Counted from the first letter of the stretch, positions 35,669 through 64,000 are shown. The stretch is DNA of 64,000 nt from Lentisphaerae bacterium GWF2_57_35 (GCA_001804865.1 MHBK01000051.1:75636-139635), one strand, 5' to 3'. Notes: generated by a model not told the origin, from the sequence alone. Translations and numbers: made by a program.

Positions 35669-35753
35669 TTTGGAAACTCCTCCTTGGGCCTATTTTCGTA
35701 ACTTATGTTTATTGCAAACTAAATTCCTGGACTTGGATTCGAACGATCCTCCG

Positions 35754-37819: not shown

Positions 37820-37938
37820 TACTTGGAGTATGGGAATCGCAGATTAACGACTATTTTAAAAGCTCTTCCTCGCCATACTGCTCACGTAGAACCCCATCTC
37901 AAATTTTCGATCTAAAATTCTCCGCCTCCCCCTGCTCC

Positions 37939-39636: not shown

Positions 39637-39672
39637 ACTTAAAGAACCTTATACAGGCGAATACGGCCTGTG

Positions 39673-40248
39673 TTATTTTCTCATCTTGATCGCTTCGTAA
39701 TCGTCAAAATTCATCATCGCAAACGGCGTTTCCATCCGGTTGAGCACCAGCCCATCCACCGGCGGAACCGGCGACTGCTCCCACCACCGCGCATTGCTCG
39801 ACGGCAAACTTTCCATCGCCAGCATGCGGCCTTGCGAATTGATCAGCACCGCCACCCGCTCCACCGTGCCGAAACGCGCCAGCGTGCTGGGATGAAGGTA
39901 GATGTCGCTCAAATGACGGCCGCGCGCAATGTTCACATAGGTCACGTCGCCCTTGAACAAGCTGAATTTGCCGGCCTTGGACTTTACCAGCACGTAATAC
40001 GTGAAGCTCAGCTCGTCCACCCAGTCCGGCGCCGTCTCGTAGTGCGCCACGATCTGATACCAGTCCAGCGAACGAGCCACCACCTGGCCTTTTAACAACT
40101 GATATTGCGGCGTCGCCACCTTCGAACCGGTGACCTTGCGGATCTGAACGATATTGGGACTCTCTTGGGCCAATACAACGAAGGAACTCAGCAGACTTAC
40201 AGACAAAACCGTCAAAACCAACTTCAGATTTAAGCGAGAACACTTCAT
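39673..40248 (-). CDS. Hypothetical secreted protein
   Basis: The internal Met gives the signal peptide 'MKCSRLNLKLVLTVLSVSLLSSFVVLAQ'. ~190 aa, no motif recognised. It is the last gene of the GC-rich core. Confidence 0.55.
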   Translation of the reverse strand: MKCSRLNLKLVLTVLSVSLLSSFVVLAQESPNIVQIRKVTGSKVATPQYQLLKGQVVARSLDWYQIVAHYETAPDWVDELSFTYYVLVKSKAGKFSLFKGDVTYVNIARGRHLSDIYLHPSTLARFGTVERVAVLINSQGRMLAMESLPSSNARWWEQSPVPPVDGLVLNRMETPFAMMNFDDYEAIKMRK

Positions 40249-40515
40249 TCCACACCCCTTTTCGGATGAAAGTGAAGACTCAACACACAATGCCCCTAAA
40301 AAAATTCTCGCGAGTATAGGCAGTGATTCCGCCAACAGTCAACCAGCTTTCTTATTCAAACCGCCGGTTTTTTTGTCATGAAATCCCTCTCACGCAAACC
40401 CAGGATCGAAACGGCTGCGGGCGTCGCCCGCAGCCGGATTGCCGAATGCCGATTTCCGATGGCCGAATTTTTGTCGGCCCAATTTCTGCGGCGGGAGGAT
40501 GCCGTTCTGATTTCT

Positions 40516-40605: not shown

Positions 40606-40829
40606 AAGATAAGAAAAGACTTGCGCGCACGAGAGGCTCTTAATGGAAGGGAGGGCCTTCTTGCCCGCCATCGCAGCCAGGAATGGCTGCGGTCCTTTAA
40701 CAAACTCCCAATGAGTCCAAGCCTGAGTCATAATTACAGTTGTTGTGACGCCAAAACCTTCTATTGCCAAGCCATCCGTTTGGGGGTATTTAATAACTAC
40801 AAGGGTCGCCAAGCTGAAAGGTGTGTTCC

Positions 40830-49164: not shown

Positions 49165-49175
49165 TCTCTAACCCT

Positions 49176-50463: not shown

Positions 50464-52854
50464 TCATTCATCCAAATATCTGAACTGCCGGACAAACATT
50501 TCGTGAATGTCATCACCATTGGGGAATGGATCCCGCCAAACCAGAGCCACGGCCCGACGTTCTGCGGAAATAACATCAAGGTCAGCGTCCCAATCACCAA
50601 TCGGCTCATTATCCTTGATAGCCTGAGCCACTACGACTACGGTGAAAAGGTTCTCCGTAGGATTGAAGGCCCGATACGTATTGCGTACCAAGGCATCGCG
50701 CTGATTGTTGTTTAAACTCTGAGCGCCGCCAGACATGGCCCCACCGACTTGCATGACGGAGACCCCCGCCCAACTGGCGGGACTGTCGAAACTGTCCAGC
50801 CCTTCGCGCCCCTCGTGCGACCCCGTTACGATTTGATCAATTAAAAAGTCGAGCGGCTCTGAGGCGCCATTCAAGACGTTCGTGTCGTCTGGCACAGGAG
50901 CTTCTGCGATACTCGCATTCTGAAAAATACTCCTTAATACGTTCGAATTGAGCGTACCCGGATGCACCAGGCCATTAGTCCAGAAACCGTTAACAATTCC
51001 TTGAGGCGCCAAGACTTTTGCCATAATGTTAGTCTGTTGATTGCCACAAAACCTATTAAGAAGCTCGATGCCTGCCGGCTCAAAAAGATTGATGGTCTTC
51101 CAAGGCTGGCCGATGCTGATAAAGCCAAAATCCGCTGGCGATTCTAAGTTTGCATCACGAACGTACAAAGAATATCCTTCGTCATCTCCGCCCGAAGCAG
51201 CAACTGAAGGATTTATCAAACCTGGCGACACAGGCGACGCAGCTGTCCACGCTGTGACTTCGTAGTTCATGCGAGGATCATTAACCTCCAGTCCCTTCTC
51301 AGCCAGAGAAACCGTGCCGTTCGCAGCAGCAGCAGTAAAGGAAAAAGGCAAAAAGACCAGCGCAGAAACGGAATCAGCTGTATCAGCGTTTCGTATAAGC
51401 TCTAACAAATTAACACGAACAAGCAATCGAAGACTATCATTTGCCGAGATCGGCAAGCCATTAGCTGTATATGTATAATCCCATTTCTGAGGTTTTCCAT
51501 CACTATAATCTTCGGTAAACATAATATCCTCAGATGGTGATATTAGCCCAACATTGGCTATTGTTCCTTGGGTCATATTCTGAAACGTAAAGGAAATCTC
51601 ACCTGACCCTAGAGGTCCAATTCCCAATCGGGGATTATTGGGCTTGAATCGATAGCCACCAAGTGCTGGCTTTCCAGGAAAGGGATACCAAGTTTCGATT
51701 GTCAGATTGACAACTAAGTTTGCCGTAAGCCCATCACTAGCCGTCGTCAAAGTGCCTTTGTAAATGATTTCATTAATCATCGGCACGGCCTCGGTGGAGA
51801 AAGAGTTTACATTAATGGGTATTCGATTTGTATCTCGAAAATCCATCAGACTGTCGGCCATCATATCCGCCACCGAAGCATCCATACCCCAGAAGTCAGG
51901 ACTGCTAAATATTTTCTTCGCCTGCGCTGCCGTCCATTTGTTAACATCGGGATTCACATCTTCCCATCCAAAAGCCTGCCAGCTTCCCGATCCCCAATCA
52001 AACCACCCCCGATAATAATTAAGGCTATAGGGCATCAAGTTGGAGAGCTTATTTGTATCCAGGGCAATCAAATCGGGGTTTTGCCAATTAGGACCATTCC
52101 CTTCCCCATCGTTGAAAGTAATTAACTCAGGGAAAGAGTCAAACCCATGATACCAGTTCCGATTTTGTATGAAGTTCACCAGAGCCACGGCTTCCGGCAA
52201 AGAACTCATGTCTACATCGCGAACGTTTTGCCTCTCGCTCGAAGGATTAAAGAGACCGCCCGCGTTGGGCATGGAGATCAGATTAGCATCCATGGCCCCG
52301 GAGCAATCCAGCACGACATAACCATACCGCCCGAGGATTCGTCTAGGGGATTCAGGATCTACCACATAAACCCACTGAGCGGGAAGGTTAAAGGGAGGAA
52401 GGCCATTTGTCAGAAGAACCCTGGCATTCAGTTGGGGCATCGTGGGGGGGAAATACTTCTTGGGAATCCAGTTAACCACTTCCCCTTCCAGCAACTTGAG
52501 GTTTCCCAAAGGGACCGCCTGGTTGGGAACCGAACCCACATGCCGCGACATAAGAACCGACTCGGTCAGGGAAGGAATAATCAAATTGCTATCCCATAAT
52601 GCATGGTCGTAATCGTTCATGGCGGCGTTCAACGCAGAACGGGCCAATTGACGACAACGGCTGAGTTCCAGAGCGGAATCCGCCACCAGTCGTTCCGTGC
52701 GCGTCAGCGTCAGCAAAGCCACAGCCATCATAGTTAAAATGCTGAGAAACCCCAATACCACCACTAAGGCAATGCCGTCGCGCCTGTTGATGTTGCTCCA
52801 CAACTGAATCGTCATAAGAATTCCTAGTGCCAATAATGAGCCGGATGGCTCCAT
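50464..52854 (-). CDS. gspK: GspK-like minor pseudopilin (unusually large, 796 aa)
   Basis: GspK-type N-terminus 'RRDGIALVVVLGFLSILTMMAVALLTL', which lacks the conserved Glu5. It is the last gene after the G-H-I-J-like series. The start may instead be the internal Met at 52815. Confidence 0.45.
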   Translation of the reverse strand: MEPSGSLLALGILMTIQLWSNINRRDGIALVVVLGFLSILTMMAVALLTLTRTERLVADSALELSRCRQLARSALNAAMNDYDHALWDSNLIIPSLTESVLMSRHVGSVPNQAVPLGNLKLLEGEVVNWIPKKYFPPTMPQLNARVLLTNGLPPFNLPAQWVYVVDPESPRRILGRYGYVVLDCSGAMDANLISMPNAGGLFNPSSERQNVRDVDMSSLPEAVALVNFIQNRNWYHGFDSFPELITFNDGEGNGPNWQNPDLIALDTNKLSNLMPYSLNYYRGWFDWGSGSWQAFGWEDVNPDVNKWTAAQAKKIFSSPDFWGMDASVADMMADSLMDFRDTNRIPINVNSFSTEAVPMINEIIYKGTLTTASDGLTANLVVNLTIETWYPFPGKPALGGYRFKPNNPRLGIGPLGSGEISFTFQNMTQGTIANVGLISPSEDIMFTEDYSDGKPQKWDYTYTANGLPISANDSLRLLVRVNLLELIRNADTADSVSALVFLPFSFTAAAANGTVSLAEKGLEVNDPRMNYEVTAWTAASPVSPGLINPSVAASGGDDEGYSLYVRDANLESPADFGFISIGQPWKTINLFEPAGIELLNRFCGNQQTNIMAKVLAPQGIVNGFWTNGLVHPGTLNSNVLRSIFQNASIAEAPVPDDTNVLNGASEPLDFLIDQIVTGSHEGREGLDSFDSPASWAGVSVMQVGGAMSGGAQSLNNNQRDALVRNTYRAFNPTENLFTVVVVAQAIKDNEPIGDWDADLDVISAERRAVALVWRDPFPNGDDIHEMFVRQFRYLDE

Positions 52855-53729
52855 TGCCCCGGCGTCATGATCGGGAAAATACGAGTCATTAGTACATTTG
52901 AATCGCGGATCATCAGTGAACGCCCTTTTCGCCAGACATCATCCTGGGAGCTCCCAACGTATAATAGATTCGCGCCGCCCTGACTGGCCGCTTCCGTGGA
53001 CGTAACTTGCAGATAAATGTCAATAGCTGCAGGATGCATGTCCGCATCATAAAGACCGGGGTATGTCTTGCTGCTTGAATAGGAACTGATCCCCCCTGAT
53101 TCCTCCTGCAACAAGACACCTTTCTGCGTATGCAGATACACGTCGAACCGGACAATATTATCGATCAGGACTTCGGGATTCCCACTCGCCACAGACAACG
53201 TCAGCCACCAATCTTTGTACAGGAGAGGATTATTCGCCGACGGCTGCAAGGGATCTTTAGAATTCTTATCCATCACATCGAAATTCCATGAAGAGCGCCG
53301 AAGTCGAAAGCGCTTGGATGCCACTAAATTATTCGTTGCTTGATATTCATTAACATCATAACACACAAGCTGATAAGCCCGGCCATCATCCTGATCACCG
53401 CCCGTCGTAACAAACCAGACCTCGTCGAACCCAAACCCGTTAGGATTTGCTCCCCACGACCCGGTTGTCTTGTCCACCGAATCCGCCTCGTGATAGAAAG
53501 CCAGACGTTCATTAATCACAGCACATTCAAGTTCGTGGCGGATGAGATCCAAAGCCGATTCAGCAGCGCCATTTCGCATGACCGTGGTCGTCCCTTTTTT
53601 AAACGCGTTCGTGGCTTCCGTAAAAACACGGGTTAGGGCCAGCATCAAAATGACCAGCACAACCATGGAGGCCAACACCTCAATCAGGGTAAAAGCATCC
53701 GTTTTTCGTGTCGTCCATGAACTTCGCAT
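52824..53729 (-). CDS. Prepilin-type minor pseudopilin in the GspJ position
   Basis: 'MRSSWTTRKTDAFTLIEVLASMVVLVILMLALT' is a class III signal / N-methylation motif. 301 aa. Called GspJ-like from its position before the GspK-like gene. Confidence 0.5.
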   Translation of the reverse strand: MRSSWTTRKTDAFTLIEVLASMVVLVILMLALTRVFTEATNAFKKGTTTVMRNGAAESALDLIRHELECAVINERLAFYHEADSVDKTTGSWGANPNGFGFDEVWFVTTGGDQDDGRAYQLVCYDVNEYQATNNLVASKRFRLRRSSWNFDVMDKNSKDPLQPSANNPLLYKDWWLTLSVASGNPEVLIDNIVRFDVYLHTQKGVLLQEESGGISSYSSSKTYPGLYDADMHPAAIDIYLQVTSTEAASQGGANLLYVGSSQDDVWRKGRSLMIRDSNVLMTRIFPIMTPGQWSHPAHYWH

Positions 53730-53733
53730 AAAA

Positions 53734-54288
53734 CTACCTCAGTGGGAGATATTCCCTGTAAAAGACCTTGCCGGGCGTGCCAGGGGTCTGTCCAGATGGG
53801 TACTGTCCGGGCCAAACCTGCAGACGGGCATATTTAAGTCCAGGATAAGCGTTCACCTCCGCGATACTAAACTTGTAAGTGAAATATGCGGCTTTGATAT
53901 TCCCATCTAGCCAAACGTCACCGGCATAGAAATTAGGGATCCAGTAATACGGATTCTCTACCTCGATCACACCGCTGGGAACGATAATCGGTTGCAGGTT
54001 TGTGTTCATGGAATGTGATTTCATCAACTGAAAGGAGCCGCTTGTCTCAAAGTCATCCCACAGTTCATTCGTATTGGCCGCTTCAAAATCAAGGCTGCTG
54101 AAAACATAATCGGCAAAGGCGGCAACTTCCGTGTCGTCCACCGCTGCCCGGGTGGCATTCAAGCCTTCGGGGAAAAGGCCGAAAACAGCCAACAAGCCGA
54201 TGGCGACAACCAGGAGAGCCAGACTTACTTCGACCAATGAGTATCCGGCATCCTTTCGAATAGAGTCTATTGTGGCATGCATATTCAA
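53734..54288 (-). CDS. Prepilin-type minor pseudopilin in the GspI position
   Basis: 'KDAGYSLVEVSLALLVVAIGLLAVFGLFPEG'. 184 aa. Confidence 0.5.
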   Translation of the reverse strand: MNMHATIDSIRKDAGYSLVEVSLALLVVAIGLLAVFGLFPEGLNATRAAVDDTEVAAFADYVFSSLDFEAANTNELWDDFETSGSFQLMKSHSMNTNLQPIIVPSGVIEVENPYYWIPNFYAGDVWLDGNIKAAYFTYKFSIAEVNAYPGLKYARLQVWPGQYPSGQTPGTPGKVFYREYLPLR

Positions 54289-54971
54289 AAGTTCATATTT
54301 CCTATGTCTATTTCCACCTGCCCGGTCTTCCCCCTGACACGTATCCGGTTCGTGATGCCCGGCACGGACAACCGTTCCTCCAAGTTGTTGCCAGCCGCAT
54401 TGGGCTCATAAAACTTGGAAGTCGTCAGAAAAACACTGACGGGCACATCCCCCCAAGATGCGCCTCCATACTTATAACCATGCCCATTGGGTTTGAAAAG
54501 GATGGCTGCCATGTCGCGGCGTGCATCGCTTTCTGCCGGGAAAGGCAAGGGGAAGCTTGTCCCAAAGACCTGACCAGTCAATGAACTGTTAGTCAAAATA
54601 TAAACCCCGGAGGGAAGATACTTCCATGAAGACAGATACACAAAATTAGTCACTGTTTTGGTTTCGTTGGTTAGAGCCATGACCACATAACCCTGAAGGC
54701 ATTTATTGAGATTTTCAGAGCTATAAGTTCCATCCGAAATGGAGGGAAAGGCAACAAAGACCCATTGACGTTGAGTGACTGCATGCTGCCGAGCCAGACG
54801 AAGAGTTGTGGCCAATTCGGTGGAAGCTCCATTGATATCCTTTTTCCCGAACGTTTCGAACACCGGCATGGCGACGACGAACAGCAGGCTGATGATGGCA
54901 ATCACCACCAGCAGCTCGATGAGCGTAAAGGAACTTCTGTCTTTGCGTGTTAGATCCATATTCATTACCAA
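54285..54971 (-). CDS. Prepilin-type minor pseudopilin in the GspH position
   Basis: 'RSSFTLIELLVVIAIISLLFVVAMPVF...ELATTLRLARQHAV'. 228 aa. Confidence 0.5.
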   Translation of the reverse strand: MVMNMDLTRKDRSSFTLIELLVVIAIISLLFVVAMPVFETFGKKDINGASTELATTLRLARQHAVTQRQWVFVAFPSISDGTYSSENLNKCLQGYVVMALTNETKTVTNFVYLSSWKYLPSGVYILTNSSLTGQVFGTSFPLPFPAESDARRDMAAILFKPNGHGYKYGGASWGDVPVSVFLTTSKFYEPNAAGNNLEERLSVPGITNRIRVRGKTGQVEIDIGNMNF

Positions 54972-55480
54972 CTCGTCAAATTATCGTTGGTGGTCGCATC
55001 CTGCCCATCCGGCCCGGAGGACCAAGCAATGACGGGAGCCAGCACCGCGTCGATTCCCCCGCCGGGAGGGACAATTCGTCCGTCGCGGGTCGCATCGAAT
55101 CTCACCTTGTAGACATTGCCCCACGGATCGACAAAATCGTTGGCGGAGTTTAAAGCGGATTCGTCCGGCTCAAAAAATACGATTCTTTTAGGATTCCGGG
55201 GGTCGGAGGTCTTGAAATAAGCCCGCAACATGAGCACAACCTCGCCGTTCATAGCGTAATCCAATTCGTTTTGAACAGGCCAAATCCCGTATTCATTGAA
55301 GTACTTCATCCACACCGAGGCCAGCAGCTTGGCGTCGGCCTGAGCCTGAGCTTGCTCCCCTTTTTTGATCATGGTGTTGATGGCCGGCATGAGAAGCGCA
55401 GCCAAGATGGCCAAGATGCCAATGACAACCAGCAATTCGATCAAGGTGAATCCATTTTTCGTTTCAGGTTTTTTTTTCAT
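54965..55480 (-). CDS. gspG: GspG-like major pseudopilin, paralog 4
   Basis: 'NGFTLIELLVVIGILAILAALLMPAINTMIKKGEQAQAQADAKLLASVWMKYFNEYGIWP' matches the T2SS GspG pattern (F-T-L-I-E-[LIVM], 'K...A..D...L..A...Y..D.G.YP'). Confidence 0.55.
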   Translation of the reverse strand: MKKKPETKNGFTLIELLVVIGILAILAALLMPAINTMIKKGEQAQAQADAKLLASVWMKYFNEYGIWPVQNELDYAMNGEVVLMLRAYFKTSDPRNPKRIVFFEPDESALNSANDFVDPWGNVYKVRFDATRDGRIVPPGGGIDAVLAPVIAWSSGPDGQDATTNDNLTSW

Positions 55481-56124
55481 GGGGGTGTAAAGGTCGTTAA
55501 GGCCCGGCTTATATCATAGCTAGCTTTGTTGTTGCTTCCCGCCGAGTTTCCGCCCGTGGGCGGACCATAGGACACGACGCCTACTTTGTGGCCAATTATT
55601 TCGACTATATTCCAAACCTGCAGGGGCGTCTGAAGTCGAGAAAACAAAATGACCGTGTCGGCGTCGGTATCCATGATAATTTGATAAGGATTGCCCCAAG
55701 GGTCGAGAAAATAGTTGTTGGCCGGGGTATAAGAGTCGCCGTTCATATCCACGCCCACCAACGATTCCTCGGGGATTTGCAGGTAGACCTTACGATTGGG
55801 ATTATTCGTCGTATCGCGGGCGGTCAGAATATTCATCACAATGCTCTGATCGTCCGGAGTGGAATTACCAGGCAACTGCTTCATGCCGTAGTCGGAATCC
55901 TGACTGCCATTTCGGCCCGGGGCGGGCATGAACCCATAGTCCTTGTAATAAGACAAAATGGCGGTCTTTATATTGTTCATCTCCGTCTTGGCGCGGGTGA
56001 TGTCCGCGCGCTTCATGGCGGCATTGATCGCGGGAAACAACAGCGCGGCCAGCACGGCAATAATGCTGATGACCACCAGCAATTCGATTAGCGTAAAACC
56101 CCTTCGATTTGTGTTTAAGCGCAC
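55477..56124 (-). CDS. gspG: GspG-like major pseudopilin, paralog 3
   Basis: 'RGFTLIELLVVISIIAVLAALLFPAINAAMKRADITRAKTEMNNIKTAILSYYKDYGFMPAP'. Confidence 0.55.
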   Translation of the reverse strand: MRLNTNRRGFTLIELLVVISIIAVLAALLFPAINAAMKRADITRAKTEMNNIKTAILSYYKDYGFMPAPGRNGSQDSDYGMKQLPGNSTPDDQSIVMNILTARDTTNNPNRKVYLQIPEESLVGVDMNGDSYTPANNYFLDPWGNPYQIIMDTDADTVILFSRLQTPLQVWNIVEIIGHKVGVVSYGPPTGGNSAGSNNKASYDISRALTTFTPP

Positions 56125-56128
56125 GATT

Positions 56129-56803
56129 TCACCATGATTTAATAAACGATTTCGCCTTGCCCGGTTCGGATCCGAAGCTCATGACGCCAATTTTTAGGCC
56201 AGGGAAGGTCCCGTCGCCACCCGGTGACGCGGCATTAATGGCCGTACGCACTTCCGCATATGGGATCAAATCGAAAGCTCCCCGGTCGATCCCCTCATCC
56301 CGGCTGGTATCCATCACGATGTAATATGGATTTTCCCACGGGTCGAGATAGTAGTTATCCGCTTCGGTATAAGAAGCCGAATCCCCCGTCAAAGAAGCCT
56401 TGCCGACAAGGCTTTCCTTCGAAATATCGAGATAAAGCTGCTGGCCCTTGTTCTGGCTGTGATCCGGATTAAACGTGCTGTGCGGCATGGCCCTCAAGAC
56501 ATACATGAGAGAACACTGCTTGTCAGCCAAATTTTGCCCGCCAAACAGGGCATCTGCGCGGCCGTTTTGATTGTACGTCGGCATTCGATTATGCTTTTGA
56601 TAATAATTGCGGATGGCCGTTTCGATGTCCTTCATCTGCGCCATGGCTTTATTCTTGTCCGCCCGTTGAAACGCCGCGTTCATGGCAGGGAGGATAATCG
56701 CCGCCAGAATGGCAATAATGCTTATAACAACGAGTAGCTCAACCAATGTAAAAGCGTGCTTGCTTGGGATTCTTCTCATCAACATCATCTCCGCTCCCTC
56801 CAA
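56129..56803 (-). CDS. gspG: GspG-like major pseudopilin, paralog 2
   Basis: 'HAFTLVELLVVISIIAILAAIILPAMNAAFQRADKNKAMAQMKDIETAIRNYYQKHNRMP'. Confidence 0.55.
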   Translation of the reverse strand: MEGAEMMLMRRIPSKHAFTLVELLVVISIIAILAAIILPAMNAAFQRADKNKAMAQMKDIETAIRNYYQKHNRMPTYNQNGRADALFGGQNLADKQCSLMYVLRAMPHSTFNPDHSQNKGQQLYLDISKESLVGKASLTGDSASYTEADNYYLDPWENPYYIVMDTSRDEGIDRGAFDLIPYAEVRTAINAASPGGDGTFPGLKIGVMSFGSEPGKAKSFIKSW

Positions 56804-56867
56804 GACACGAACTTACCCTCCTAAAGTTTAAAAGTCCAGCGGCCTTTCCACGAGCCGTCCGCTAAAG

Positions 56868-57368
56868 CTATTGAGCTGTCCAGTTATTCAAATTTGTCTG
56901 CCCATCAGGGCCCAAAGACCACAAATCGTAGCCAAATTTGGAGTCGTTGTGATCGGCATAAGGACTAGCAGAACGATGAAGATATCGATACGTCGCCCCC
57001 CAAGGATCGATGGCTCCATAGTTGATGTTGGGATCGGTCCAGCCCTTTAACACCAAGAAGGGTTTCTTACCTAAGGCTTGGGGCTGGCACCACAATTGAG
57101 CGACCCAGTTGGTGGTATTTGCAGGAAGAAAATTGATTGGATATCGTCCATACTCGACACGATAATCTTCCAAGGCATTCTTAATCTTCTCCATATCGGA
57201 CAGAGCCTTGCCCTCATCTGCCTTCTTGGTAGCAAGCCCCGCCACCCCCAAGATCATCGAAGCCAAAACCGCGATGATGGCAACCACCACGAGCACTTCA
57301 ATGAGGGTAAAAGCCTGGGAAAACACCGAATGGTCTGAGGTCGGAGCAGAGATATGTATACGCTTCAT
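56868..57368 (-). CDS. gspG: GspG-like major pseudopilin, paralog 1. The start is taken at the internal Met after a GGAG RBS; the ORF is open up to 57422.
   Basis: 'QAFTLIEVLVVVAIIAVLASMILGVAGLATKKADEGKALSDMEKIKNALEDYRVEYGRYPIN'. Confidence 0.55.
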   Translation of the reverse strand: MKRIHISAPTSDHSVFSQAFTLIEVLVVVAIIAVLASMILGVAGLATKKADEGKALSDMEKIKNALEDYRVEYGRYPINFLPANTTNWVAQLWCQPQALGKKPFLVLKGWTDPNINYGAIDPWGATYRYLHRSASPYADHNDSKFGYDLWSLGPDGQTNLNNWTAQ

Positions 57369-57383
57369 GTCGCGGTCTCCAAT

Positions 57384-57433
57384 TTTTCCAATGATTGGAA
57401 AAAATCCTACACGATTTTCCAATGATTGGAAAA
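57384..57433. promoter_or_regulatory. Two perfect palindromes 'TTTT(T)CCAATGATTGGAAAA(A)' with centres ~31 bp apart, between the giant gene stop and the first gspG-like start
   Basis: Palindrome 1 is at ~57384-57404 and palindrome 2 at ~57414-57433. Both are confirmed by mirror-image translations on both strands ('FFPIIGK' / 'FPMIGK', 'FSNDWK'). Confidence 0.5.
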
Positions 57434-57453: not shown

Positions 57454-60400
57454 CTATTGGTTAACCGAATAACTAAAACAATGGTCCAAATGGGCGCTTG
57501 GATATCGCTGAGTCACGCTGGCGCCATCTTTGGAATACTCCGACTGAAGGAAGTACTCAACCTTGGTCTGAGGTGGCTGCGCGGGAATGGGCGTAGCGGT
57601 GTAGTACACGTCAAACGCATTCGTCATACTTAGCAATGTAAAGACACCGTTCGTCCCTGCGCGATACCAGGTTCTTAGCGCAAGATTCGTTAGGTCGGCA
57701 CGAGGGAGGATTTTGGCATGAATATACACCGTGTCATTGGAATATGCAGACTGAGGAACTTGTCCCACATTCAGAACGTTTATGCGACCTGGGGCCGTTT
57801 CTGCCAGAATCGAGATGGCTGAAGCGGTCCCCAATAACTGTCCAGCGTAGTTGCCTAGCCATGCTCCATCGGTTCGCTGAGCTGAAAGAAGATTGGTCGC
57901 GCAAGCGTATCGCCAGTTCTGAGCGCCAATCATCTCAATGGGTGGATCGAACATGTCACAGGCTGCGCCGAAAGCGTGCATCCCATAAAGGTCAGAAGCT
58001 TCTGGAATCGAGTTGGCATTCAAGTAATTCAGGGCCAGCTGGACTTCCGTGTTAGTAAAAGTGCGGTTCAGGAAAGCCAATTGAGCTAAGCCATAGGAAG
58101 TGCGCGCAGAAGTGCCGTAAGACGGCCCATCATAGCCAAAGTATCCGTTGTCGTTTTGCGAATAGGCAATCCAAGCCGCCAATTCGGCTCTCAACCCGTT
58201 AGGGATGGAAATCCCATCCCAGGTTTGTGCATGATACAATCCGACCGCTGACCACCATGACGCAGAGTTGTCCGAAGACTCATGATTCGCGGAATACCGC
58301 CATCCGCCACGCCCGTAGCCATCGTCCGTTTGCGCCCAACCGCAATAATCGGCCATATCTTGCATGATATCGCGATATGATCTTCCCGCAATATTGCCGG
58401 GTGCATTCTCGGGAGCAACATTGGTCGGCCATGCAGACTCGATAAATGCAGTCATTATCGAACCAAGTTGATACATCTCGTTATTGCTATTAGCCAGCCC
58501 TATACCTAAACCATTCGAATTTGCATCAGGATTGTAATTACATTTGTCCGTGGAAATGGGTTTGGCTTGAAGGCAGTCGATTAACAAATACCGCAAGCCT
58601 CCTGAAATCGTCTCCTCGTATATGTCGTCTTCACAAGATGGCCGATGGCCAAGGGACGCAAAGGCGGTGATCGCCAGGCTATTGGCGCAGGCAATGTAAG
58701 AAGTTCCATAGTTATCGTGCTGCCAATAATATCCGTGAGCATGAAAAAACGCATTTGTATATAACCAGATCAACCCATTTTCCGCGGCGAGTAATGCCAG
58801 CGCATCAAAGTTGTTTGTTTCACGACACGCTAGTTGAAAATCGAGCGTTACAGGAACTCCCCGGCTATCGCTTAAATAAGCGTTTACATCGTATATAGAC
58901 GATGTCGAATAAACATGTTCGGTCCCAATATAACGAGATCCTGTTGTTTGCGTTACCGTAATTGTCGCACTGTGGTGGCCATCGCCTAAATCGAACCAAC
59001 AAGACAACGGCCATTGATTGGTTTGAATTTCAGTTGCTGCCATCCAAATACGAGTCGTCACGCCAACAACCGAAACTCCCCACGTATTACTTTGGTCATA
59101 ACTCGGCATATGCATGAAACGATTGAATGCGCATTCATCTGCACCGATATCTACCACGGCTTCTAATATCCGAGCATCGCCATCCAAGTCCGTTAGCATT
59201 TCCATTCCAGACGTATTGCTCCCCGTATTTAGACAGGGGGATGCATGTGATAAGTGCCAGCCGTCCGGTGCGAAAAGAGGATTGGAATTCAAATTGCCAG
59301 GTCCTGGAGGTATTAAAGAATCTTGCAGACAGGAATAGGCAAAGGACCAGTTTGTCCCCCATACATTGTTGGAGACGAAACCCCACACAATGCAATTTGT
59401 CATAGTCACGTATGACCCAGGCACTCCCGTATTATCGAGAAAAAGTGCATGCCCACAATTATCAGCGCTGTTATTGACCAAGGTGCAGTTCATGAATCGA
59501 ATCGGATATCCAGGGTGTCCACTCGAATAGAAAGCGCCGCCTTTGTGGGCCACGTTGCTATGAAATAAACTCGTATTTACATCTACCTGCGAGCTTGCCG
59601 CGATGGCGCCTCCGGTGGAGGCTGTATTTTCAATAAAGCGGCAGTGGGATAGCGAAAACACGCCCAAACCCATCAAAGCTCCGCCTTGATTAACTGCGTG
59701 GTTGTCCTCGAATCGACATGCCGCAGCCCTGAATAATCCGTTACTTTGCACAACGACTGCACCGCCATTCAACGCTGTATTTTGATTCAAACGACTGTTT
59801 TCCAGATTAAGATTTGCGGACACTTTCAATGCTCCGCCTATCGCGGACGAATTATTGGTGAACCCGCAGTCCGCGAGGTACGATTCACATTCAGCGTCAA
59901 TAGCGCCTCCAACACTCGTCGCATTGTTGTCCTCAAACGAACAATTTGCAGCCATAAGAATTCCATTACTGCGCGCCGAAATAGCGCCACCATCAATCGC
60001 GCTATTACCCGAAAACAAGCAATTGGATAAGTAAAGATCGGAGCACCCCGCCAGCGCTCCGCCAATGGCCGCCAGATTACTGGAAAAGCAACATTGTACA
60101 AAGTCAGATTCGCCATCCGAACTGATCGCTCCACCTTTATCGAATGCATTATTGTTAGCGAACAAAGAACCCCAAATAGAGGCCATTCCGTCTCTATGAA
60201 TAACAACCGCACCACCGACAAGCCCGGTATTGCACAGAAAAATACTATTGGTTAGATCCAGATAACTGCCAACAAATACAGCGCCGCCTGTGGCTGCGGA
60301 ATTACCATTGAAGCTGCACTGCGCCAGTCGCGCATCTCCTCCCAAATACAAAGCACCGCCCATTCCTCGAGCTTGATTCCTTGTGAACAAATTATCTTCA

Positions 60401-63400
60401 GCAAATAGCGAATAGGAATCTGCTGCGGTATATAAGCCTCCCCCCAGACGCGCCAGACAACCTGTTATAATGCAATTTGCTATTCGCACATCTTCTTCAC
60501 ACCAAGCGCCGCCACCGTCTTGAGAGAGGGTTCCTCCGCTATTATCAGTGTGACCATTATAAAGAGTGAACCCATCAACAGTGCATTTTGCGGCTGCATA
60601 TAAACAACGAGTGGATAATTCGGGGCCACTGCCAGATATTGTCGTAACAGATGGACCATTGACACTTTGCAGGTGAACCGAATCCTTCAGAAGAGCAACC
60701 CGACACCCAATTCCGTCCCCAACAATCCGCATTCCTGAATCATAAACCCCATTGGAAACCAATACAAAGGAACCGACCCATGCCGCATCAATGGCATCCT
60801 GAATATTGGTTGCAGCGGTTGCCCATGTGATGAATGGGACAGAGGGGCTGGAATTATATTTATCGACATAATAGACACCTAATTCGTCCGCGCCGATATC
60901 AACGATTTGATCTTGTATTCTTGGAGCACCATCTAAATCGGCTTCTACCGCGAATCTCGATAGGTTGGTCCCCGCATTTCGACACGGAGAGTCCGGCATT
61001 AAATGCCAGCCGTCGCGTTGAAAATTCGGATCGGTATTGATATTACCTACACCTGGAGCGGGCGATGGGCCTTGAATACAAGAGTACGCCGCGCCCCACG
61101 TTCCGCCTTCAATAACGCGATTATTTGCGGCTCGCAATATACAATTAGTCAAACAAGCCGTGCCCCCTAAATAGATCAGCGGGGCTAAAGATCCGGCGTC
61201 GTTGTCAACCAAGGTGCAATTGACCAAATTCAGGTCACCCATCGAGCGAATTGCACTGCCCCTACATCCACCGCCATTATCCATCAACAGACTGTTCTCA
61301 ACGACTGTGCGCGAGGTCGAATATATTCCTTCCGCACCGGGAGAACAACGGTTGCTGGCAATAACACTGCGGTCGATATATATAGGCAAGGTAACGTATA
61401 GCGCTCCCCCTTCTCTTGCGTAATTGTCCTCAAAAACACATCTCGACATTAGGCAAGTAATCCCCGACAAATAAATAGCACCACCTGCACTGCCACCAAT
61501 GTTTCCGGTGAACAAGCAATTTTCCAATACAAATGATCCCGATGTGCCGCACACCGCACCACCATAGCCCGTTGTAATGGAATTACTGATAAATGCGCAT
61601 GACTGAACAGTCAGCATGGCTCCATCAGCATTGATCGCTCCGCCAAAATAGAATATATGTCCATTTCGCATGGTCAAATGCTTAATGACGGCACTAGTTG
61701 TCCCATTTTGAATCAGAAACGCCCGGCCAGAAGATTCACAGTCGATGACGGTATTGTCTCGTTGCCCTTGCAGGCCGGTAACGGCCAGGTTTTTTCCGTT
61801 GAAATCCACGTCACGATTTAAAGATCCCGTATAGGCGCCAGGCATAATAATAATATGGTGGCCATTGGACGCCTGCCCAAGCGCGTAAGAAATGGTAGCG
61901 TAAGGGTTGGTATACGAGCCGCGGCCTATGGCATCCACGCCGTTGGTGGCGACGTAGTGACCGCCGACGGGCTGAGAGTCAAGCGAGTTGGGATTGGTTT
62001 GGGCGTTATACTCTTCCAGGTTCGACCAGCCGTCCTGGTCGGGGTCCAGGTCCGCATCGGCGGGGTTGTTGGGATTCAGGCTATGCCAGCGTTCCCAGTC
62101 GTCGCTCATGCCGTCGCCGTCGGCGTCCACAAAACCGGCCGTTGGATCGGCGCCGGCGTAATATTCGTAGAGATTGATGAGGTGGTCGCCGTCTTCGTCG
62201 TTTGTCTCCACACGCGACAAATTAGAAAACCATTTCATTTCCCACCAATCCCCCATTTCATCGTCATCGGTGTCCGGATTGGTCAGGACGATATCGGCGT
62301 TGTCGATTGGGCCGGCAATGGAAAGGGCGGTGTTCGTATAGTAGCCGCGGGCTTCGTACACTCCGCAGGTTCTGTTGCCGTCGGAGTCGCGCCAGGTCCA
62401 AATCCAGCAGGGTCCTTCCGGAAAAGCGGTCAGCCGATAAGGGCCGGGTTGCGGCAAGACTTGTGCAAAGTTTGTGCTGCAACTGTTCGAGGCGGCGACG
62501 GCCACAACATAAATCAAGCCGGTCTGGCCTCCACTATAAGGCGCATAACTTATCGTGCCGCCGATGCTGGGCGGGTCCTGGAGCGCAAAATCGATGGCGG
62601 TCCTGCGGTTGCTGACGGCAAAGGCCGTTTGGCTGTACCGCCCCACCCGTTCGGGCCAGGCCATGTTGAAATTTGTGTCGGAATCGACGAAGGCGCGAAT
62701 CCAGTAATTCGAGGCGGGCATTCCAACGATGGAATAATTGACGGGGAAGGTCACAACCGCCATTTCGCCGGAAAGGCCGCTGCTTTGTATCCAGGGAATG
62801 ACGCAACGATACGTCGTATCCCAACTATTCGATGCCGTGACCGCGACGATCCAAATATCCCCATTGACCGAACCCGTGTAGCTCAGTTGTCCCCAAATCG
62901 AGGGGACATCCTGCAGGGCCATGTTGACGCCGCCGATATTGGACGTCACGTAAGTTGAGGCCGCACTGTAAAGAGCCCAAGGCTCCCAGCCGTCCAGGTT
63001 GTGATTGTTGTTCGCATCGCGAAACGCTTTGAACCACCAAGCCCGAGGGATGGCGACGCGATTGTTGCTATAGGCGTCCGGCGTGGGCATCGAGACGGAG
63101 CCCCCCAGCGACCAGCTCTCGGAGGCGGCCACCGCCAGCATATAGACCGAACCGGTTTCAGCGCCGCTATACGAAATTGCACCCGACACGAGAGCCGGGT
63201 GAGACGATGCATTGGTCGGATCGGAATGGTACAGAAATCGTTCGCGCATATCGGCATACCCATCTCCATCCGAATCCAGATCGGCATTGCCCGCCGCATA
63301 GATGCGTGGCGTTACCGGGGGTATGGCCACTTCGGCATCGGTCCATTCGATCCAGTTGGTTGAAGAGGAGACCGGGGTCGTGGCCGCAAGATCCCACCAG

Positions 63401-64000
63401 AATTCAAGCAGGTCATCCGTCCGGAAAACATCGAGCCGATTCGTGAAGCAGTTGACCGGGTAGGTTGCGCCACTATAAGGATACACAATGGTCAGACGGA
63501 CAAGATTGGTCATTCTTTCGATAGCCGTGATGCAGATGTTCGTGACCGGCGGGCCGGCGTAGCGCATAAGCACGGCGCCGCCTTTCGGTGTGGAGGAAGA
63601 AAGGGCAGCATTCTGCGCAATAAGGGCGGTTGTGTACAGGTACGGCTCGGCATATTCGCACGGAACCAACGTAAGTTCCACCTGCACCCGCGAACTGTCA
63701 TATAGCCGGGACATATAGTCCACATAACCGGGGCTGTATTTTCCCGAGAACAGATCCTGAAAGATCGTTTTGAGATACCATTGCGGCTCACGGGTTGCCG
63801 ATTGAAGTGCAAATATCTCTTTGCCTTTTTCGTTAAAGAACCGAGTGGTCCGCGACTTTTGATCTTCGACCATAGTCAGTTTGTAGGCGGGAACACTGTT
63901 CTCGTAGCGTAAGACGAGATTTTTGAATTCGTGCGGAAATTTATGCCAATTAAACGGCAAGACTTGGCCGCTGGGTTGGCGCAGGATGAAATCCTCGGCA
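57454..64000 (-). CDS. Giant secreted protein (>2,168 aa, probably 5'-partial). Its parts are described in the evidence field.
   Basis: The ORF is open to the window end. The first listed codon is TTG and the visible N-terminus has no signal peptide, so the gene likely continues upstream. The N-terminus carries three tandem copies of a ~110-aa unknown module ('ISYSGAETGSVYMLAVAASESWS', 'LSYTGSVNGDIWIVAVTASNSWD', 'ISYAPYSGGQTGLIYVVAVAASNSCS'). Two dockerin/TSP3-like double calcium-loop modules follow: 'DTDDDEMGDWWE...DEDGDHLINLYEY' and 'DADGDGMSDDWE...DPDQDGWSNLEEY'. There are ~18 Pmp-type repeats pairing 'GGAI/GGAV/GGAL' with 'CxFxxN', e.g. 'GGAINADG...CAFISNS', 'GGAIYLSG...CVFEDN', 'GGAISARSNG...CSFEDN'. 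The C-terminus is a W/Y/G-rich region 'DDGYGRGGWRYSANHESSDNSASWWSAVGLY...QNDNGYFGYDGPSYGTSARTSYGLAQLAFL'. Confidence 0.8.
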   Translation of the reverse strand, partial: AEDFILRQPSGQVLPFNWHKFPHEFKNLVLRYENSVPAYKLTMVEDQKSRTTRFFNEKGKEIFALQSATREPQWYLKTIFQDLFSGKYSPGYVDYMSRLYDSSRVQVELTLVPCEYAEPYLYTTALIAQNAALSSSTPKGGAVLMRYAGPPVTNICITAIERMTNLVRLTIVYPYSGATYPVNCFTNRLDVFRTDDLLEFWWDLAATTPVSSSTNWIEWTDAEVAIPPVTPRIYAAGNADLDSDGDGYADMRERFLYHSDPTNASSHPALVSGAISYSGAETGSVYMLAVAASESWSLGGSVSMPTPDAYSNNRVAIPRAWWFKAFRDANNNHNLDGWEPWALYSAASTYVTSNIGGVNMALQDVPSIWGQLSYTGSVNGDIWIVAVTASNSWDTTYRCVIPWIQSSGLSGEMAVVTFPVNYSIVGMPASNYWIRAFVDSDTNFNMAWPERVGRYSQTAFAVSNRRTAIDFALQDPPSIGGTISYAPYSGGQTGLIYVVAVAASNSCSTNFAQVLPQPGPYRLTAFPEGPCWIWTWRDSDGNRTCGVYEARGYYTNTALSIAGPIDNADIVLTNPDTDDDEMGDWWEMKWFSNLSRVETNDEDGDHLINLYEYYAGADPTAGFVDADGDGMSDDWERWHSLNPNNPADADLDPDQDGWSNLEEYNAQTNPNSLDSQPVGGHYVATNGVDAIGRGSYTNPYATISYALGQASNGHHIIIMPGAYTGSLNRDVDFNGKNLAVTGLQGQRDNTVIDCESSGRAFLIQNGTTSAVIKHLTMRNGHIFYFGGAINADGAMLTVQSCAFISNSITTGYGGAVCGTSGSFVLENCLFTGNIGGSAGGAIYLSGITCLMSRCVFEDNYAREGGALYVTLPIYIDRSVIASNRCSPGAEGIYSTSRTVVENSLLMDNGGGCRGSAIRSMGDLNLVNCTLVDNDAGSLAPLIYLGGTACLTNCILRAANNRVIEGGTWGAAYSCIQGPSPAPGVGNINTDPNFQRDGWHLMPDSPCRNAGTNLSRFAVEADLDGAPRIQDQIVDIGADELGVYYVDKYNSSPSVPFITWATAATNIQDAIDAAWVGSFVLVSNGVYDSGMRIVGDGIGCRVALLKDSVHLQSVNGPSVTTISGSGPELSTRCLYAAAKCTVDGFTLYNGHTDNSGGTLSQDGGGAWCEEDVRIANCIITGCLARLGGGLYTAADSYSLFAEDNLFTRNQARGMGGALYLGGDARLAQCSFNGNSAATGGAVFVGSYLDLTNSIFLCNTGLVGGAVVIHRDGMASIWGSLFANNNAFDKGGAISSDGESDFVQCCFSSNLAAIGGALAGCSDLYLSNCLFSGNSAIDGGAISARSNGILMAANCSFEDNNATSVGGAIDAECESYLADCGFTNNSSAIGGALKVSANLNLENSRLNQNTALNGGAVVVQSNGLFRAAACRFEDNHAVNQGGALMGLGVFSLSHCRFIENTASTGGAIAASSQVDVNTSLFHSNVAHKGGAFYSSGHPGYPIRFMNCTLVNNSADNCGHALFLDNTGVPGSYVTMTNCIVWGFVSNNVWGTNWSFAYSCLQDSLIPPGPGNLNSNPLFAPDGWHLSHASPCLNTGSNTSGMEMLTDLDGDARILEAVVDIGADECAFNRFMHMPSYDQSNTWGVSVVGVTTRIWMAATEIQTNQWPLSCWFDLGDGHHSATITVTQTTGSRYIGTEHVYSTSSIYDVNAYLSDSRGVPVTLDFQLACRETNNFDALALLAAENGLIWLYTNAFFHAHGYYWQHDNYGTSYIACANSLAITAFASLGHRPSCEDDIYEETISGGLRYLLIDCLQAKPISTDKCNYNPDANSNGLGIGLANSNNEMYQLGSIMTAFIESAWPTNVAPENAPGNIAGRSYRDIMQDMADYCGWAQTDDGYGRGGWRYSANHESSDNSASWWSAVGLYHAQTWDGISIPNGLRAELAAWIAYSQNDNGYFGYDGPSYGTSARTSYGLAQLAFLNRTFTNTEVQLALNYLNANSIPEASDLYGMHAFGAACDMFDPPIEMIGAQNWRYACATNLLSAQRTDGAWLGNYAGQLLGTASAISILAETAPGRINVLNVGQVPQSAYSNDTVYIHAKILPRADLTNLALRTWYRAGTNGVFTLLSMTNAFDVYYTATPIPAQPPQTKVEYFLQSEYSKDGASVTQRYPSAHLDHCFSYSVNQ

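What the first reader, a model, noticed from the sequence alone, without database searches (positions are those of the whole stretch)
57454..64000. Chlamydia-type Pmp (FxxN/GGAI) repeat beta-helix in a non-chlamydial giant protein, with a non-autotransporter C-terminus
About 18 tandem repeats pair 'GGA[ILV]' with '[CS]xFxxN'. This is the signature of chlamydial polymorphic membrane proteins, where the passenger is an autotransporter with a C-terminal beta-barrel. Here there is no C-terminal barrel. The protein instead ends in a W/Y/G-rich region that resembles alpha/alpha-toroid (prenyltransferase / squalene-cyclase-like) repeats.

The protein starts with a triplicated ~110-aa module of unknown family and two dockerin-like calcium modules. 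The visible N-terminus lacks a signal peptide and the frame is open to the window edge, so the gene is probably even longer. The domain combination suggests an adhesin with a possible ligand-binding or enzymatic toroid domain, exported by something other than the type V route.
Basis: partly seen in the sequence, partly recalled or inferred. Interest (0 to 1): 0.7.

Follow-up and report, generated by a model that had tools for sequence, protein, structure and literature searches.

The report
Secreted Pmp-repeat beta-helix protein with toroid head
This is most of a 2,256-residue secreted surface protein from an uncultured relative of Verrucomicrobia and Chlamydia, built from known kinds of modules in a rare combination; it is a probable adhesin or sugar-binding protein, not a new secretion principle.

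Summary
The minus-strand ORF 57454-64000 is the last 2,181 codons of a 2,256-codon gene. The missing 75 residues, read from two public contigs, carry a signal-peptide-like N-terminus.

The domain order is:
- a lineage-specific N-domain
- Ca-binding thrombospondin-type-3 (TSP3) repeats, not dockerins
- three homologous beta-sandwich modules of about 100 aa
- more TSP3 repeats
- two homologous units of Pmp-type beta-helix plus a 'choice-of-anchor Q' cap, with 4 and 13 regular GGA[ILV]...FxxN coils
- a PKD-like domain
- a 111-aa modular beta domain

There is no autotransporter barrel, Pmp middle domain or known C-terminal anchor.

The novelty was overstated. Pmp repeats are widespread outside Chlamydia, and NCBIfam already models their cap domain. 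Three things are less ordinary:
- The toroid belongs to a large extracellular family (over 1,000 clusters) with no Pfam model of its own.
- The N-terminal module recurs as stand-alone proteins beside RHS toxin genes.
- Synonymous-site GC drops sharply at the module/payload junction, which suggests a mosaic gene.

Function (adhesin or glycan binder, possibly exported through the neighbouring pseudopilin/secretin system) is inferred, not shown.

The parts
63295..63999 (-). N-domain, window-protein residues 1-235. The first 75 residues of the gene, including the signal peptide, lie beyond the window edge.
   Evidence: The frame is open to the edge and the full start is read on L001/L002. The domain is conserved at 40-61% identity in 600-680-aa stand-alone secreted proteins. 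The AF2 model is mixed alpha/beta with no convincing PDB match.
63205..63294 (-). First TSP3-type Ca-binding repeat (ADLDSDGDGYADMRE)
   Evidence: Pfam TSP3_bac best stretch at 242-264. D242, D244, D246 and E253 are invariant in 45 homologues.
62275..63204 (-). Three homologous beta-sandwich modules of about 100-110 aa (residues 266-365, 366-475, 476-575)
61960..62274 (-). Second TSP3 repeat region (residues 576-680)
   Evidence: It hits MtsD, lanmodulin and Amuc_1099, the last at 49.2 bits, below its 50-bit cutoff, on residues 630-677. The DxDxDG-type sequence is shown.
61090..61959 (-). Beta-helix 1 with a DUF1565-like N-cap, 4 canonical Pmp coils and further degenerate coils (residues 681-970)
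   Evidence: Chlam_PMP 25.9 bits on this block; NosD E 0.006; DUF1565 E 0.007. Coil register shown.
60880..61089 (-). Choice-of-anchor Q domain, copy 1 (residues about 971-1040)
   Evidence: NCBIfam NF041518 43.7 bits (cutoff 25), best stretch 999-1039.
59365..60879 (-). Beta-helix 2: N-cap plus 13 regular Pmp coils of 24-28 aa (residues 1041-1545), with a 3-coil (75-aa) super-repeat
   Evidence: Chlam_PMP 57.7 bits with 7 stretches. Register shown. Coil identity is 0.38 at lags 3 and 6 against 0.23-0.27 at other lags. The unit is homologous to beta-helix 1 (33% over 323 aa, E 4e-35).
59134..59364 (-). Choice-of-anchor Q-like domain, copy 2 (residues about 1546-1622)
   Evidence: One search reports two stretches for NF041518 but gives coordinates only for the first (999-1039). 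The second is placed here because this segment aligns with copy 1 (YSC[IL]Q...GxGN...DGWHL...SPCxNxG...DLDG...VDIGADE).
58822..59133 (-). PKD-like beta-sandwich (residues 1623-1726)
   Evidence: Strands in the AF2 model. It aligns with the WDFGDGS PKD-like domain that precedes the toroid in homologues. Weak Big_13 hit.
57790..58821 (-). (alpha/alpha)6 toroid domain (residues 1727-2070)
57457..57789 (-). C-terminal 111-aa modular domain (residues 2071-2181); stop codon at 57454-57456
   Evidence: Conserved in P0016 and P0017. It occurs four times in tandem after the toroid of P0018, and once inside window ORF 40821-44741 at 43554-43913 (36% identity). No known sorting-signal model matches. The AF2 model is unreliable here.
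50464..57422 (-). Context: downstream same-strand operon of seven prepilin-type proteins (four GspG-like, then Verru_Chthon D/B/C-like) and one Verru_Chthon A-like protein. It starts 85 nt after the giant gene.
   Evidence: No terminator-like site lies in the gap.
32693..40335 (-). Context: Amuc_1102-like, PilM, Amuc_1100-like and Amuc_1099-family proteins plus a secretin, forming a pilus-like/secretion cluster

Best explanation
The ORF encodes a Sec-exported, modular extracellular protein of an uncultured PVC-group bacterium (labelled Verrucomicrobia; homologues labelled Kiritimatiellae/Kiritimatiellia).

Proposed anatomy:
- A conserved N-terminal 'carrier' part: N-domain, TSP3 calcium repeats and transthyretin-like beta-sandwich modules.
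- A long rigid stalk made of two duplicated right-handed beta-helices built from Pmp-type coils, each closed by a choice-of-anchor Q cap.
- A distal head made of a PKD-like domain, an (alpha/alpha)6 toroid and a small beta domain.

Proposed function: it most likely acts as a surface or secreted adhesin or glycan-binding protein. The stalk would project the toroid head away from the cell, and the toroid cavity would be the ligand-binding (possibly hydrolytic) site.

What it is not: it is not a type V autotransporter. It shares only the repeat type with chlamydial Pmps.

Shown here: gene extent, signal-peptide-like start, every domain assignment, the toroid fold, the absence of a barrel, and the mosaic composition.

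Inferred: the beta-helix fold of the repeat regions (by analogy with Pmp models in PMC11166332 and PMC10715098), calcium binding, extracellular location, and the adhesive or glycan-binding function.
For: - Full gene and signal-peptide-like start.
- Pmp repeat profiles above cutoff in both blocks.
- Motif counts far above shuffles.
- Regular 24-28-aa coils.
- Two choice-of-anchor Q matches.
- No Autotransporter or ChlamPMP_M hit.
- Toroid-family partners are extracellular modules: PKD in 35 of 46 members, also CARDB, FlgD_ig, dockerin, T9SS tail, F5/8-C and Peptidase_C25.
- Homologues carry signal peptides.
- Orthologues P0016 (55-61% identity) and P0017 (about 46%) keep the N-module, beta-helix, PKD, toroid and C-domain order in independent samples.
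- The P0016 orthologue sits next to a GH31 glycosidase gene.
Against: - There is no direct evidence for any ligand or for localisation.
- The toroid matches terpene cyclases and glycosidases about equally well, so the fold does not identify a function.
- No structure was predicted for the beta-helix regions themselves.
- The AF2 models rest on shallow alignments (16 and 45 sequences). The last 111 aa and module 3 are unreliable in them.
- No known anchor (PEP-CTERM, LPXTG, T9SS tail, lipobox) was found, so how or whether the protein stays on the cell is unknown.
Confidence: 0.6

Rival explanations
1. The protein is functionally tied to the adjacent type IV filament or type II secretion-like system. 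It would be either cargo pushed through the secretin by the pseudopilus, or an adhesin carried by the pilus, analogous in logic to PilY1 encoded with minor pilins.
For: - The gene lies 85 nt upstream of, and on the same strand as, seven prepilin-type genes plus a GspK/Verru_Chthon-A-like gene. No terminator-like site is in the gap.
- A PilM, Amuc_1100-like, Amuc_1099-like and secretin cluster lies further along the same strand.
Against: - Orthologues P0016 and P0017 are not next to pilin genes. Both share a different upstream neighbour, a beta-helix/TSP3 protein, and P0016 is followed by GH31.
- No PilY1/PilC domain was found.
- No secretion ATPase or platform gene was found among the window ORFs tested.
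Confidence: 0.25
2. It is a carbohydrate-active enzyme rather than an adhesin. The beta-helices would be polysaccharide lyase or hydrolase domains, and/or the toroid a six-hairpin glycoside hydrolase.
For: - A weak Pel9A-like beta-helix hit is precomputed for the full protein; NosD and DUF1565 hits are weak.
- A GH31 gene neighbours the orthologue.
- Toroid-family partners include carbohydrate-related modules.
Against: - No Pfam or NCBIfam glycosidase or lyase family scores, even at lenient thresholds.
- The invariant toroid residues mostly lie in QW-like structural motifs.
- Catalytic residues could not be mapped.
Confidence: 0.2
3. It is one member of a polymorphic, recombining surface-protein or toxin system. 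A conserved N-terminal carrier module would be combined with exchangeable payloads: RHS shells encoded in trans next door, or the beta-helix/toroid payload fused in cis here.
For: - The N-terminal part (about 480 aa) is 40-61% identical to stand-alone 600-680-aa proteins.
- In L004/L005, L006, L007 and L012 such a gene is followed at once by an RHS/YD-shell gene. That is 4 of the 9 distinct contexts read; the downstream gene in L003 is cut by the contig end and was not identified.
- Several stand-alone homologues end in YD-repeat-like sequence.
- The module also heads proteins of 1,282, 1,597 and 1,619 aa with other C-terminal parts.
- GC3 falls from 0.63-0.71 in the N-module to 0.39-0.52 in the payload, exactly at the junction.
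Against: - The payload is conserved, not polymorphic, among the three orthologues.
- No toxin or immunity pair is evident at this locus.
- The GC3 shift could reflect different selection on codon usage.
Confidence: 0.15
4. It is a genuine chlamydial-type Pmp autotransporter whose barrel was missed, or the toroid is a working terpenoid cyclase or prenyltransferase.
Against: - There is no Autotransporter or ChlamPMP_M hit at E<=1.
- Everything after the second cap is accounted for by PKD, toroid and a 111-aa module that is too short for a 12-strand barrel.
- The toroid has no DxDD and gives no Prenyltrans/SQHop profile hit.
- It is a single toroid in a secreted protein, not a beta-gamma didomain.
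Confidence: 0.03

Closest known systems
Chlamydial polymorphic membrane proteins (Pmps; type Va autotransporters)
   Same: GGA[ILV] and FxxN tetrapeptides alternate with a period of about 24-28 aa. PF02415 and TIGR01376 score above cutoff. An N-terminal signal peptide is present. The host belongs to the same PVC group.
   Different: There is no Pmp middle domain and no C-terminal beta-barrel. The repeats sit in two duplicated units, each capped by a choice-of-anchor Q domain. Large unrelated N- and C-terminal modules are present.
Non-chlamydial Pmp-repeat beta-helix proteins with a choice-of-anchor Q domain (NCBIfam NF041518 / TIGR01376)
   Same: A Pmp-type beta-helix is followed by the YSCxQ...DPxF...SPCxNxG...DLDG...DIGAxE cap. 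The model scores 43.7 bits against a cutoff of 25.
   Different: The unit is duplicated. It is followed not by a terminal sorting signal but by PKD, a toroid and a beta domain. From my own knowledge, the family name refers to varied C-terminal anchors, and none is found here.
Six-hairpin / terpenoid-cyclase-like (alpha/alpha)6 toroids (oxidosqualene and squalene-hopene cyclases, prenyltransferase beta subunits, GH76, complement TED)
   Different: This protein gives no profile hit, has no DxDD, and has a single extracellular toroid flanked by beta-sandwich domains. Its conserved motifs (NPDxNGNGLG, QDMxD, GGWRYS..DNS) are specific to its own family.
Uncharacterised secreted PKD-toroid-PKD proteins (P0001-P0015, P0018-P0164)
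   Same: They share the PKD-like plus toroid module (28-42% identity), the same invariant residues, and signal peptides.
   Different: They are usually 400-1,500 aa (some up to 7,300 aa) and have PKD/Ig arrays rather than Pmp beta-helices. Only P0016 and P0017 share the full architecture.
Stand-alone N-module/TSP3 proteins beside RHS genes in Kiritimatiellota/Verrucomicrobiota MAGs (P0165-P0203)
   Same: They share the N-domain, the TSP3 repeat and two beta-sandwich modules at 40-61% identity. Two paralogues (P0168, P0172) carry locus tags of the window's own assembly.
   Different: They stop after the TSP3 repeats, some with a YD-like tail. In 4 of the 9 distinct contexts read they are followed by a separate RHS gene. 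Here the module is fused to a 1,500-aa payload.
PilY1/PilC-type pilus-associated adhesins and type II secretion substrates
   Same: A large signal-peptide-bearing protein is encoded at the head of a (pseudo)pilin operon.
   Different: There is no PilC/PilY1 beta-propeller domain, and the neighbourhood is not conserved in the orthologues.

Membership tests
Chlamydial Pmp autotransporter | Repeated GGA[ILV]/FxxN motifs matching PF02415/TIGR01376 | tested here: met
   39.4, 25.9 and 57.7 bits against a 20.6 cutoff; TIGR01376 50.5 bits. 16 GGA and 13 [CS]xFxxN motifs against fewer than 1 expected.
Chlamydial Pmp autotransporter | Pmp middle domain (PF07548) | tested here: not met
   No hit at E<=1 on the whole protein.
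Chlamydial Pmp autotransporter | C-terminal autotransporter beta-barrel (PF03797) | tested here: not met
   No hit at E<=1. The C-terminal 588 aa are modelled as PKD, toroid and a 111-aa module.
Choice-of-anchor Q / Pmp-repeat beta-helix proteins (NF041518) | Match to the NF041518 domain model above its cutoff, following a beta-helix | tested here: met
   43.7 bits against 25, two stretches. The two units are homologous, E 4e-35.
Choice-of-anchor Q / Pmp-repeat beta-helix proteins (NF041518) | One of several C-terminal sorting signals after the domain (definition recalled from my own knowledge) | tested here: not met
   No PEP-CTERM, LPXTG or T9SS tail model hit. The last domain is a repeatable internal module elsewhere.
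Terpenoid cyclase / prenyltransferase toroid | (alpha/alpha)6 toroid fold | tested here: met
Terpenoid cyclase / prenyltransferase toroid | Profile match to Prenyltrans/SQHop_cyclase Pfam models | tested here: not met
   None at E<=10 for this protein. No PDB hit for the toroid, by single sequence or by profile. 2 of 46 relatives hit SQHop_cyclase_C.
Terpenoid cyclase / prenyltransferase toroid | Catalytic DxDD (class II cyclase) or Zn-binding D/C/H triad (prenyltransferase beta) | tested here: inconclusive
   DxDD is absent from residues 1711-2075. The Zn triad could not be mapped without model coordinates.
Six-hairpin glycoside hydrolases (e.g. GH76) | Family profile match and catalytic acidic pair in the cavity | tested here: inconclusive
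Bacterial TSP3 calcium-binding repeats | PF18884 match above cutoff | tested here: met
   29.6 bits against 25. The Asp ladder is invariant in homologues.
Dockerin | PF00404 match | tested here: not met
   No hit at E<=1.
PilY1/PilC pilus tip adhesin | C-terminal PilC/PilY1 beta-propeller domain | tested here: not met
   No hit. The C-terminus is accounted for by other domains.
Amuc_1099 family pilus-like system protein (NF042425) | Score at or above the 50-bit cutoff over the profile | tested here: not met
   49.2 bits, confined to TSP3 residues 630-677. A true family member lies elsewhere in the window at 35754-36800, with 62.6 bits.

The most novel reading that the evidence does not exclude
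The N-terminal part of about 500-600 aa is the constant 'carrier' of a PVC-lineage-specific system of exchangeable surface payloads. The same module is paired in trans with RHS toxin shells and fused in cis with other large payloads. In this gene a beta-helix/PKD/toroid payload of foreign codon composition was recombined onto it inside a low-GC island next to a pseudopilin/secretin system, which could be its export route. The toroid would represent a large extracellular family of glycan-active or ligand-capturing domains with no Pfam model of its own.
Probability: 0.2. Interest if true: 0.65.

Novelty: new variant of a known kind. Interest (0 to 1): 0.38.

Why it matters
As filed, the finding is mostly ordinary. 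Pmp-type beta-helices without autotransporters are common outside Chlamydia and are already covered by curated models.

Three by-products are worth keeping:
- A widespread extracellular (alpha/alpha)6 toroid family (over 1,000 clusters at 50% identity) has no Pfam model of its own and no sequence-detectable solved relative. It is a candidate new binding or glycoside-hydrolase family in polysaccharide-degrading PVC bacteria.
- A lineage-specific N-terminal module links this protein to RHS toxin loci. That hints at a shared display or export route for very large proteins in Kiritimatiellota.
- A clean intragenic GC3 break documents domain-level mosaicism in a giant surface protein.

None of these changes a major question by itself, but each can be tested.

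Tried and rejected
- Close-relative scans of genome contigs and metagenome contigs with the C-terminal 588 aa found nothing. A 3-sequence alignment found only distant toroid relatives.
- Alignment A2 was too diverse for a locus scan. A3 gave 4 true loci.
- A homologue search with the last 116 aa found nothing. Local phmmer/tblastn then showed that this is a repeatable module.
- The AFDB50 fold library was unavailable.
- PDB sequence searches, by single sequence and by profile, found no toroid relative.
- Tandem Repeats Finder found no DNA-level repeats, so the coils are old.
- ORFs 18881-20125 and 20122-21711 were tested as possible GspF/GspE. One has no PDB match and the other is a 5'-nucleotidase homologue.
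- Literature searches for 'choice-of-anchor Q' and for Kiritimatiellae plus pseudopilin returned nothing.

Rejected readings:
- Dockerin: no PF00404 hit.
- Autotransporter: no barrel.
- Lipoprotein: the residues before the only Cys of the signal region (RSLVC) do not form a lipobox.
- C-terminal sorting domain: the domain is internal and tandem elsewhere.
- Assembly chimera: identical in two assemblies, and the architecture is kept in two orthologues from other samples.

Full report
**Observation.** The minus-strand frame from 57457 to the window edge is open for 2,181 codons, with the stop at 57454-57456. I looked up the adjacent pseudopilin protein and recovered the same locus on two public contigs: L001 (ENA ERZ28564009 scaffold_263, 155 kb) and L002 (NCBI GCA_003489865.1, DNKJ01000087). 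On these the gene is 2,256 codons (called as 2,320 on L002) and is identical over the window part. The 75 residues missing from the window start MRNRSSGKWVAFRSLVCLAGVFVLFLTAGGPSDA. This is the only strongly hydrophobic stretch in the protein, so I read it as a Sec signal peptide. No dedicated predictor was available, so this is an inference.

**Repeats.**
- GGA[ILVF] occurs 17 times against a shuffle mean of 0.5. [CS]xFxxN occurs 13 times against 0.7.
- Sixteen of the GGA motifs, plus one GGGL, lie in two blocks: residues 786-864 (4 coils) and 1186-1487 (13 coils of 24-28 aa).
- Pfam Chlam_PMP scores 39.4 bits on the whole protein, and 25.9 and 57.7 bits on the two blocks separately (cutoff 20.6). 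TIGR01376 scores 50.5 bits. Generic beta-helix families appear only weakly (NosD E 0.006, DUF1565 E 0.007).
- Each block is followed by a segment matching NCBIfam NF041518, the choice-of-anchor Q domain (43.7 bits, cutoff 25, two stretches).
- The two beta-helix-plus-cap units are homologous to each other (33% over 323 aa, E 4e-35). The 'about 18 tandem repeats' are therefore real but belong to two duplicated domains.
- Within the second helix, coil identity peaks at lags 3 and 6 (0.38 against 0.23-0.27). The helix therefore grew by duplication of 3-coil, 75-aa units. These duplications are old, because there is no DNA-level tandem repeat.
- I did not predict a structure for these regions. Their beta-helix fold is inferred from the published Pmp models (PMC11166332, PMC10715098).

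**No type V features.** Neither Autotransporter nor ChlamPMP_M appears at E<=1. Everything after the second cap is accounted for by other domains, described next.

**C-terminal region.**
- An AlphaFold2 model of the last 588 aa, built with 15 homologues, has pTM 0.72. It shows a beta-sandwich (model residues 34-133) and a 12-helix domain (138-475) whose block pLDDT is mostly 80-92.
- At the sequence level it matches nothing known. There is no Pfam hit at E<=10 and no PDB hit for the toroid, by single sequence or by profile.
- It has no DxDD motif. It has two QW-like Qx3Gx[WF] loops.
- An exhaustive HMMER search with the toroid alone found 1,082 representative clusters at E<=1e-3 and 726 at E<=1e-10, in proteins of about 200 to 7,300 aa.
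- Among 46 of these, 35 carry PKD domains. Others carry CARDB, FlgD_ig, dockerin, T9SS tails or F5/8-C, and two reach SQHop_cyclase_C. One further member carries Peptidase_C25.
- Invariant residues define family-specific motifs: NPDxNGNGLG, QDMxD and GGWRYS..DNS..W.
- Only P0016 (2,248 aa, 55-61% identity) and P0017 (1,646 aa, about 46% identity, one beta-helix) combine this toroid with the N-module and beta-helices.
- The last 111 aa are not a sorting signal. The same domain occurs four times in tandem after the toroid of P0018, and once internally in window ORF 40821-44741 (36% identity).

**N-terminal region.**
- The three modules of about 100-110 aa are about 30% identical to each other (E about 1e-11).
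- The N-domain (residues 1-235) has no convincing structural match.
- The 'dockerin-like' segments are Pfam TSP3_bac repeats. The near-threshold Amuc_1099 hit (49.2 against 50 bits) is confined to these repeats.
- Unexpectedly, the first 480 aa or so are 40-61% identical to a family of stand-alone 600-680-aa secreted proteins from MAGs labelled Verrucomicrobia or Kiritimatiellae. Two of these (P0168, P0172) carry locus tags of the window's own assembly.
- In L004/L005, L006, L007 and L012 such a gene is followed at once by an RHS/YD-shell gene. In the three loci with called genes the gap is 2-6 nt. That is 4 of the 9 distinct contexts read. The downstream gene in L003 is cut by the contig end and was not identified.
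- Several of the stand-alone proteins end in YD-repeat-like sequence.
- The module also heads proteins of 1,282, 1,597 and 1,619 aa with other C-terminal parts.

**Mosaicism.** Third-position GC is 0.63-0.71 in the N-module and TSP3 part. It drops to 0.49, 0.44, 0.39 and 0.52 in the beta-helices, PKD and toroid, and the break falls at the TSP3/beta-helix junction. Housekeeping genes in the window have GC3 of 0.73-0.79, and the whole 40-62 kb stretch has 0.51-0.65. This fits a payload recombined onto a resident N-module inside a compositionally distinct island. Selection on codon usage cannot be excluded as an alternative.

**Genomic context.**
- Downstream on the same strand, 85 nt away and with no terminator-like site between, lie four GspG-like pseudopilins. 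They are followed by Verru_Chthon cassette D-, B-, C- and A-like proteins.
- Further along the same strand is a cluster of Amuc_1102-like, PilM, Amuc_1100-like and Amuc_1099-family proteins plus a secretin.
- This makes export through, or association with, a type IV-filament/type II-like system attractive. However, orthologues P0016 and P0017 have a different conserved upstream neighbour and no pilins, and P0016 is followed by GH31. The link is therefore weak.

**Interpretation.** The best-supported reading is a Sec-exported, calcium-stabilised modular surface or secreted protein. A lineage-specific N-terminal carrier is followed by a double Pmp-type beta-helix stalk and a PKD-toroid head. It probably acts as an adhesin or glycan binder.
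- It is not a member of the chlamydial Pmp autotransporter family, because two defining features were tested and not met.
- It is a member of the broader, already curated class of non-chlamydial Pmp-repeat/choice-of-anchor Q proteins.
- PMC11166332 notes that fewer than a third of PF02415-containing proteins are chlamydial. The host belongs to the PVC group.

**Novelty.** The headline novelty is therefore low. The domain combination is rare, with three clusters found. The toroid family has no Pfam model of its own. The link between the N-module and RHS loci is undescribed as far as my searches reach. I rate the finding as a new variant of a known kind, with interest 0.38.

Noticed in passing
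window 32693-40335 (minus strand): A homologue of the Akkermansia Amuc_1098-1102 pilus-like cluster. Its genes are Amuc_1102-like (39673-40335, 63.5 bits), PilM (37939-39636), Amuc_1100-family-like (36797-37819, E 8e-29 but below cutoff), Amuc_1099 family (35754-36800, 62.6 bits) and a TPR-secretin (32693-35668).
   Followed up: partly
window 50464-57422 (minus strand): An operon of seven prepilin-type N-methylation proteins: four GspG-like, then Verru_Chthon cassette D-, B- and C-like. It is followed by a 796-aa protein whose N-terminus matches Verru_Chthon cassette protein A. It starts directly downstream of the giant gene.
   Followed up: partly
L004/L005 10001-17637; L006 9001-16697; L007 9001-15371; L012 9767-18630: N-module proteins are followed at once by RHS/YD-shell genes of about 1,460 to 1,930 aa that have their own signal peptides. 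In L004/L005, L006 and L007 the gap is 2-6 nt and the RHS start is always offset +2 in frame. Some RHS genes carry Peptidase_C39 or transglutaminase/DUF6531 domains. Several of the closest stand-alone N-module homologues, including P0172 (L007), end in YD-like sequence.
   Followed up: partly
window 57457-63999, break near 61960; island 40000-62000: There is a sharp intragenic drop in third-position GC, from 0.63-0.71 to 0.39-0.52, at the TSP3/beta-helix junction. The whole 40-62 kb region has lower GC (about 0.50) than the rest of the window (0.55-0.61). This suggests a mosaic gene in a compositionally distinct island.
   Followed up: partly
window 43554-43913 (plus strand, inside ORF 40821-44741); P0018 residues 511-912: The giant protein's last 111-aa domain has a paralogous copy (36% identity) inside the neighbouring 1,306-aa protein, which has LTD and F5/8-type-C domains and ExeM-like similarity. 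It also occurs four times in tandem after the toroid of P0018.
   Followed up: yes
window 59365-60879 (residues 1183-1483): The 13 Pmp coils follow a 27+24+24-aa pattern. Coil identity peaks at lags 3 and 6, which indicates growth by duplication of 3-coil units. There is no DNA-level repeat, so these events are old.
   Followed up: yes
L009 2-1717; L010 3-1652; L011 1-423: Orthologues P0016 and P0017 share a conserved upstream gene encoding another beta-helix/TSP3 protein (69% identity between the two loci). This gene is absent from the window's locus, where the upstream genes are a DUF1559-type N-methyl protein on the opposite strand, a 180-aa unknown and LpxI.
   Followed up: partly
window 44991-50372 (plus strand): Four consecutive ORFs of 491, 742, 158 and 398 aa have no Pfam hit. 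Only the first has a weak TSP3-type NCBIfam hit. They are convergent with the pseudopilin operon.
   Followed up: no
window 61855-62958 (plus strand): A 367-aa ATG ORF lies antisense to the N-module/TSP3 part of the giant gene. It is probably a by-product of the GC-rich coding strand opposite. I did not examine it.
   Followed up: no
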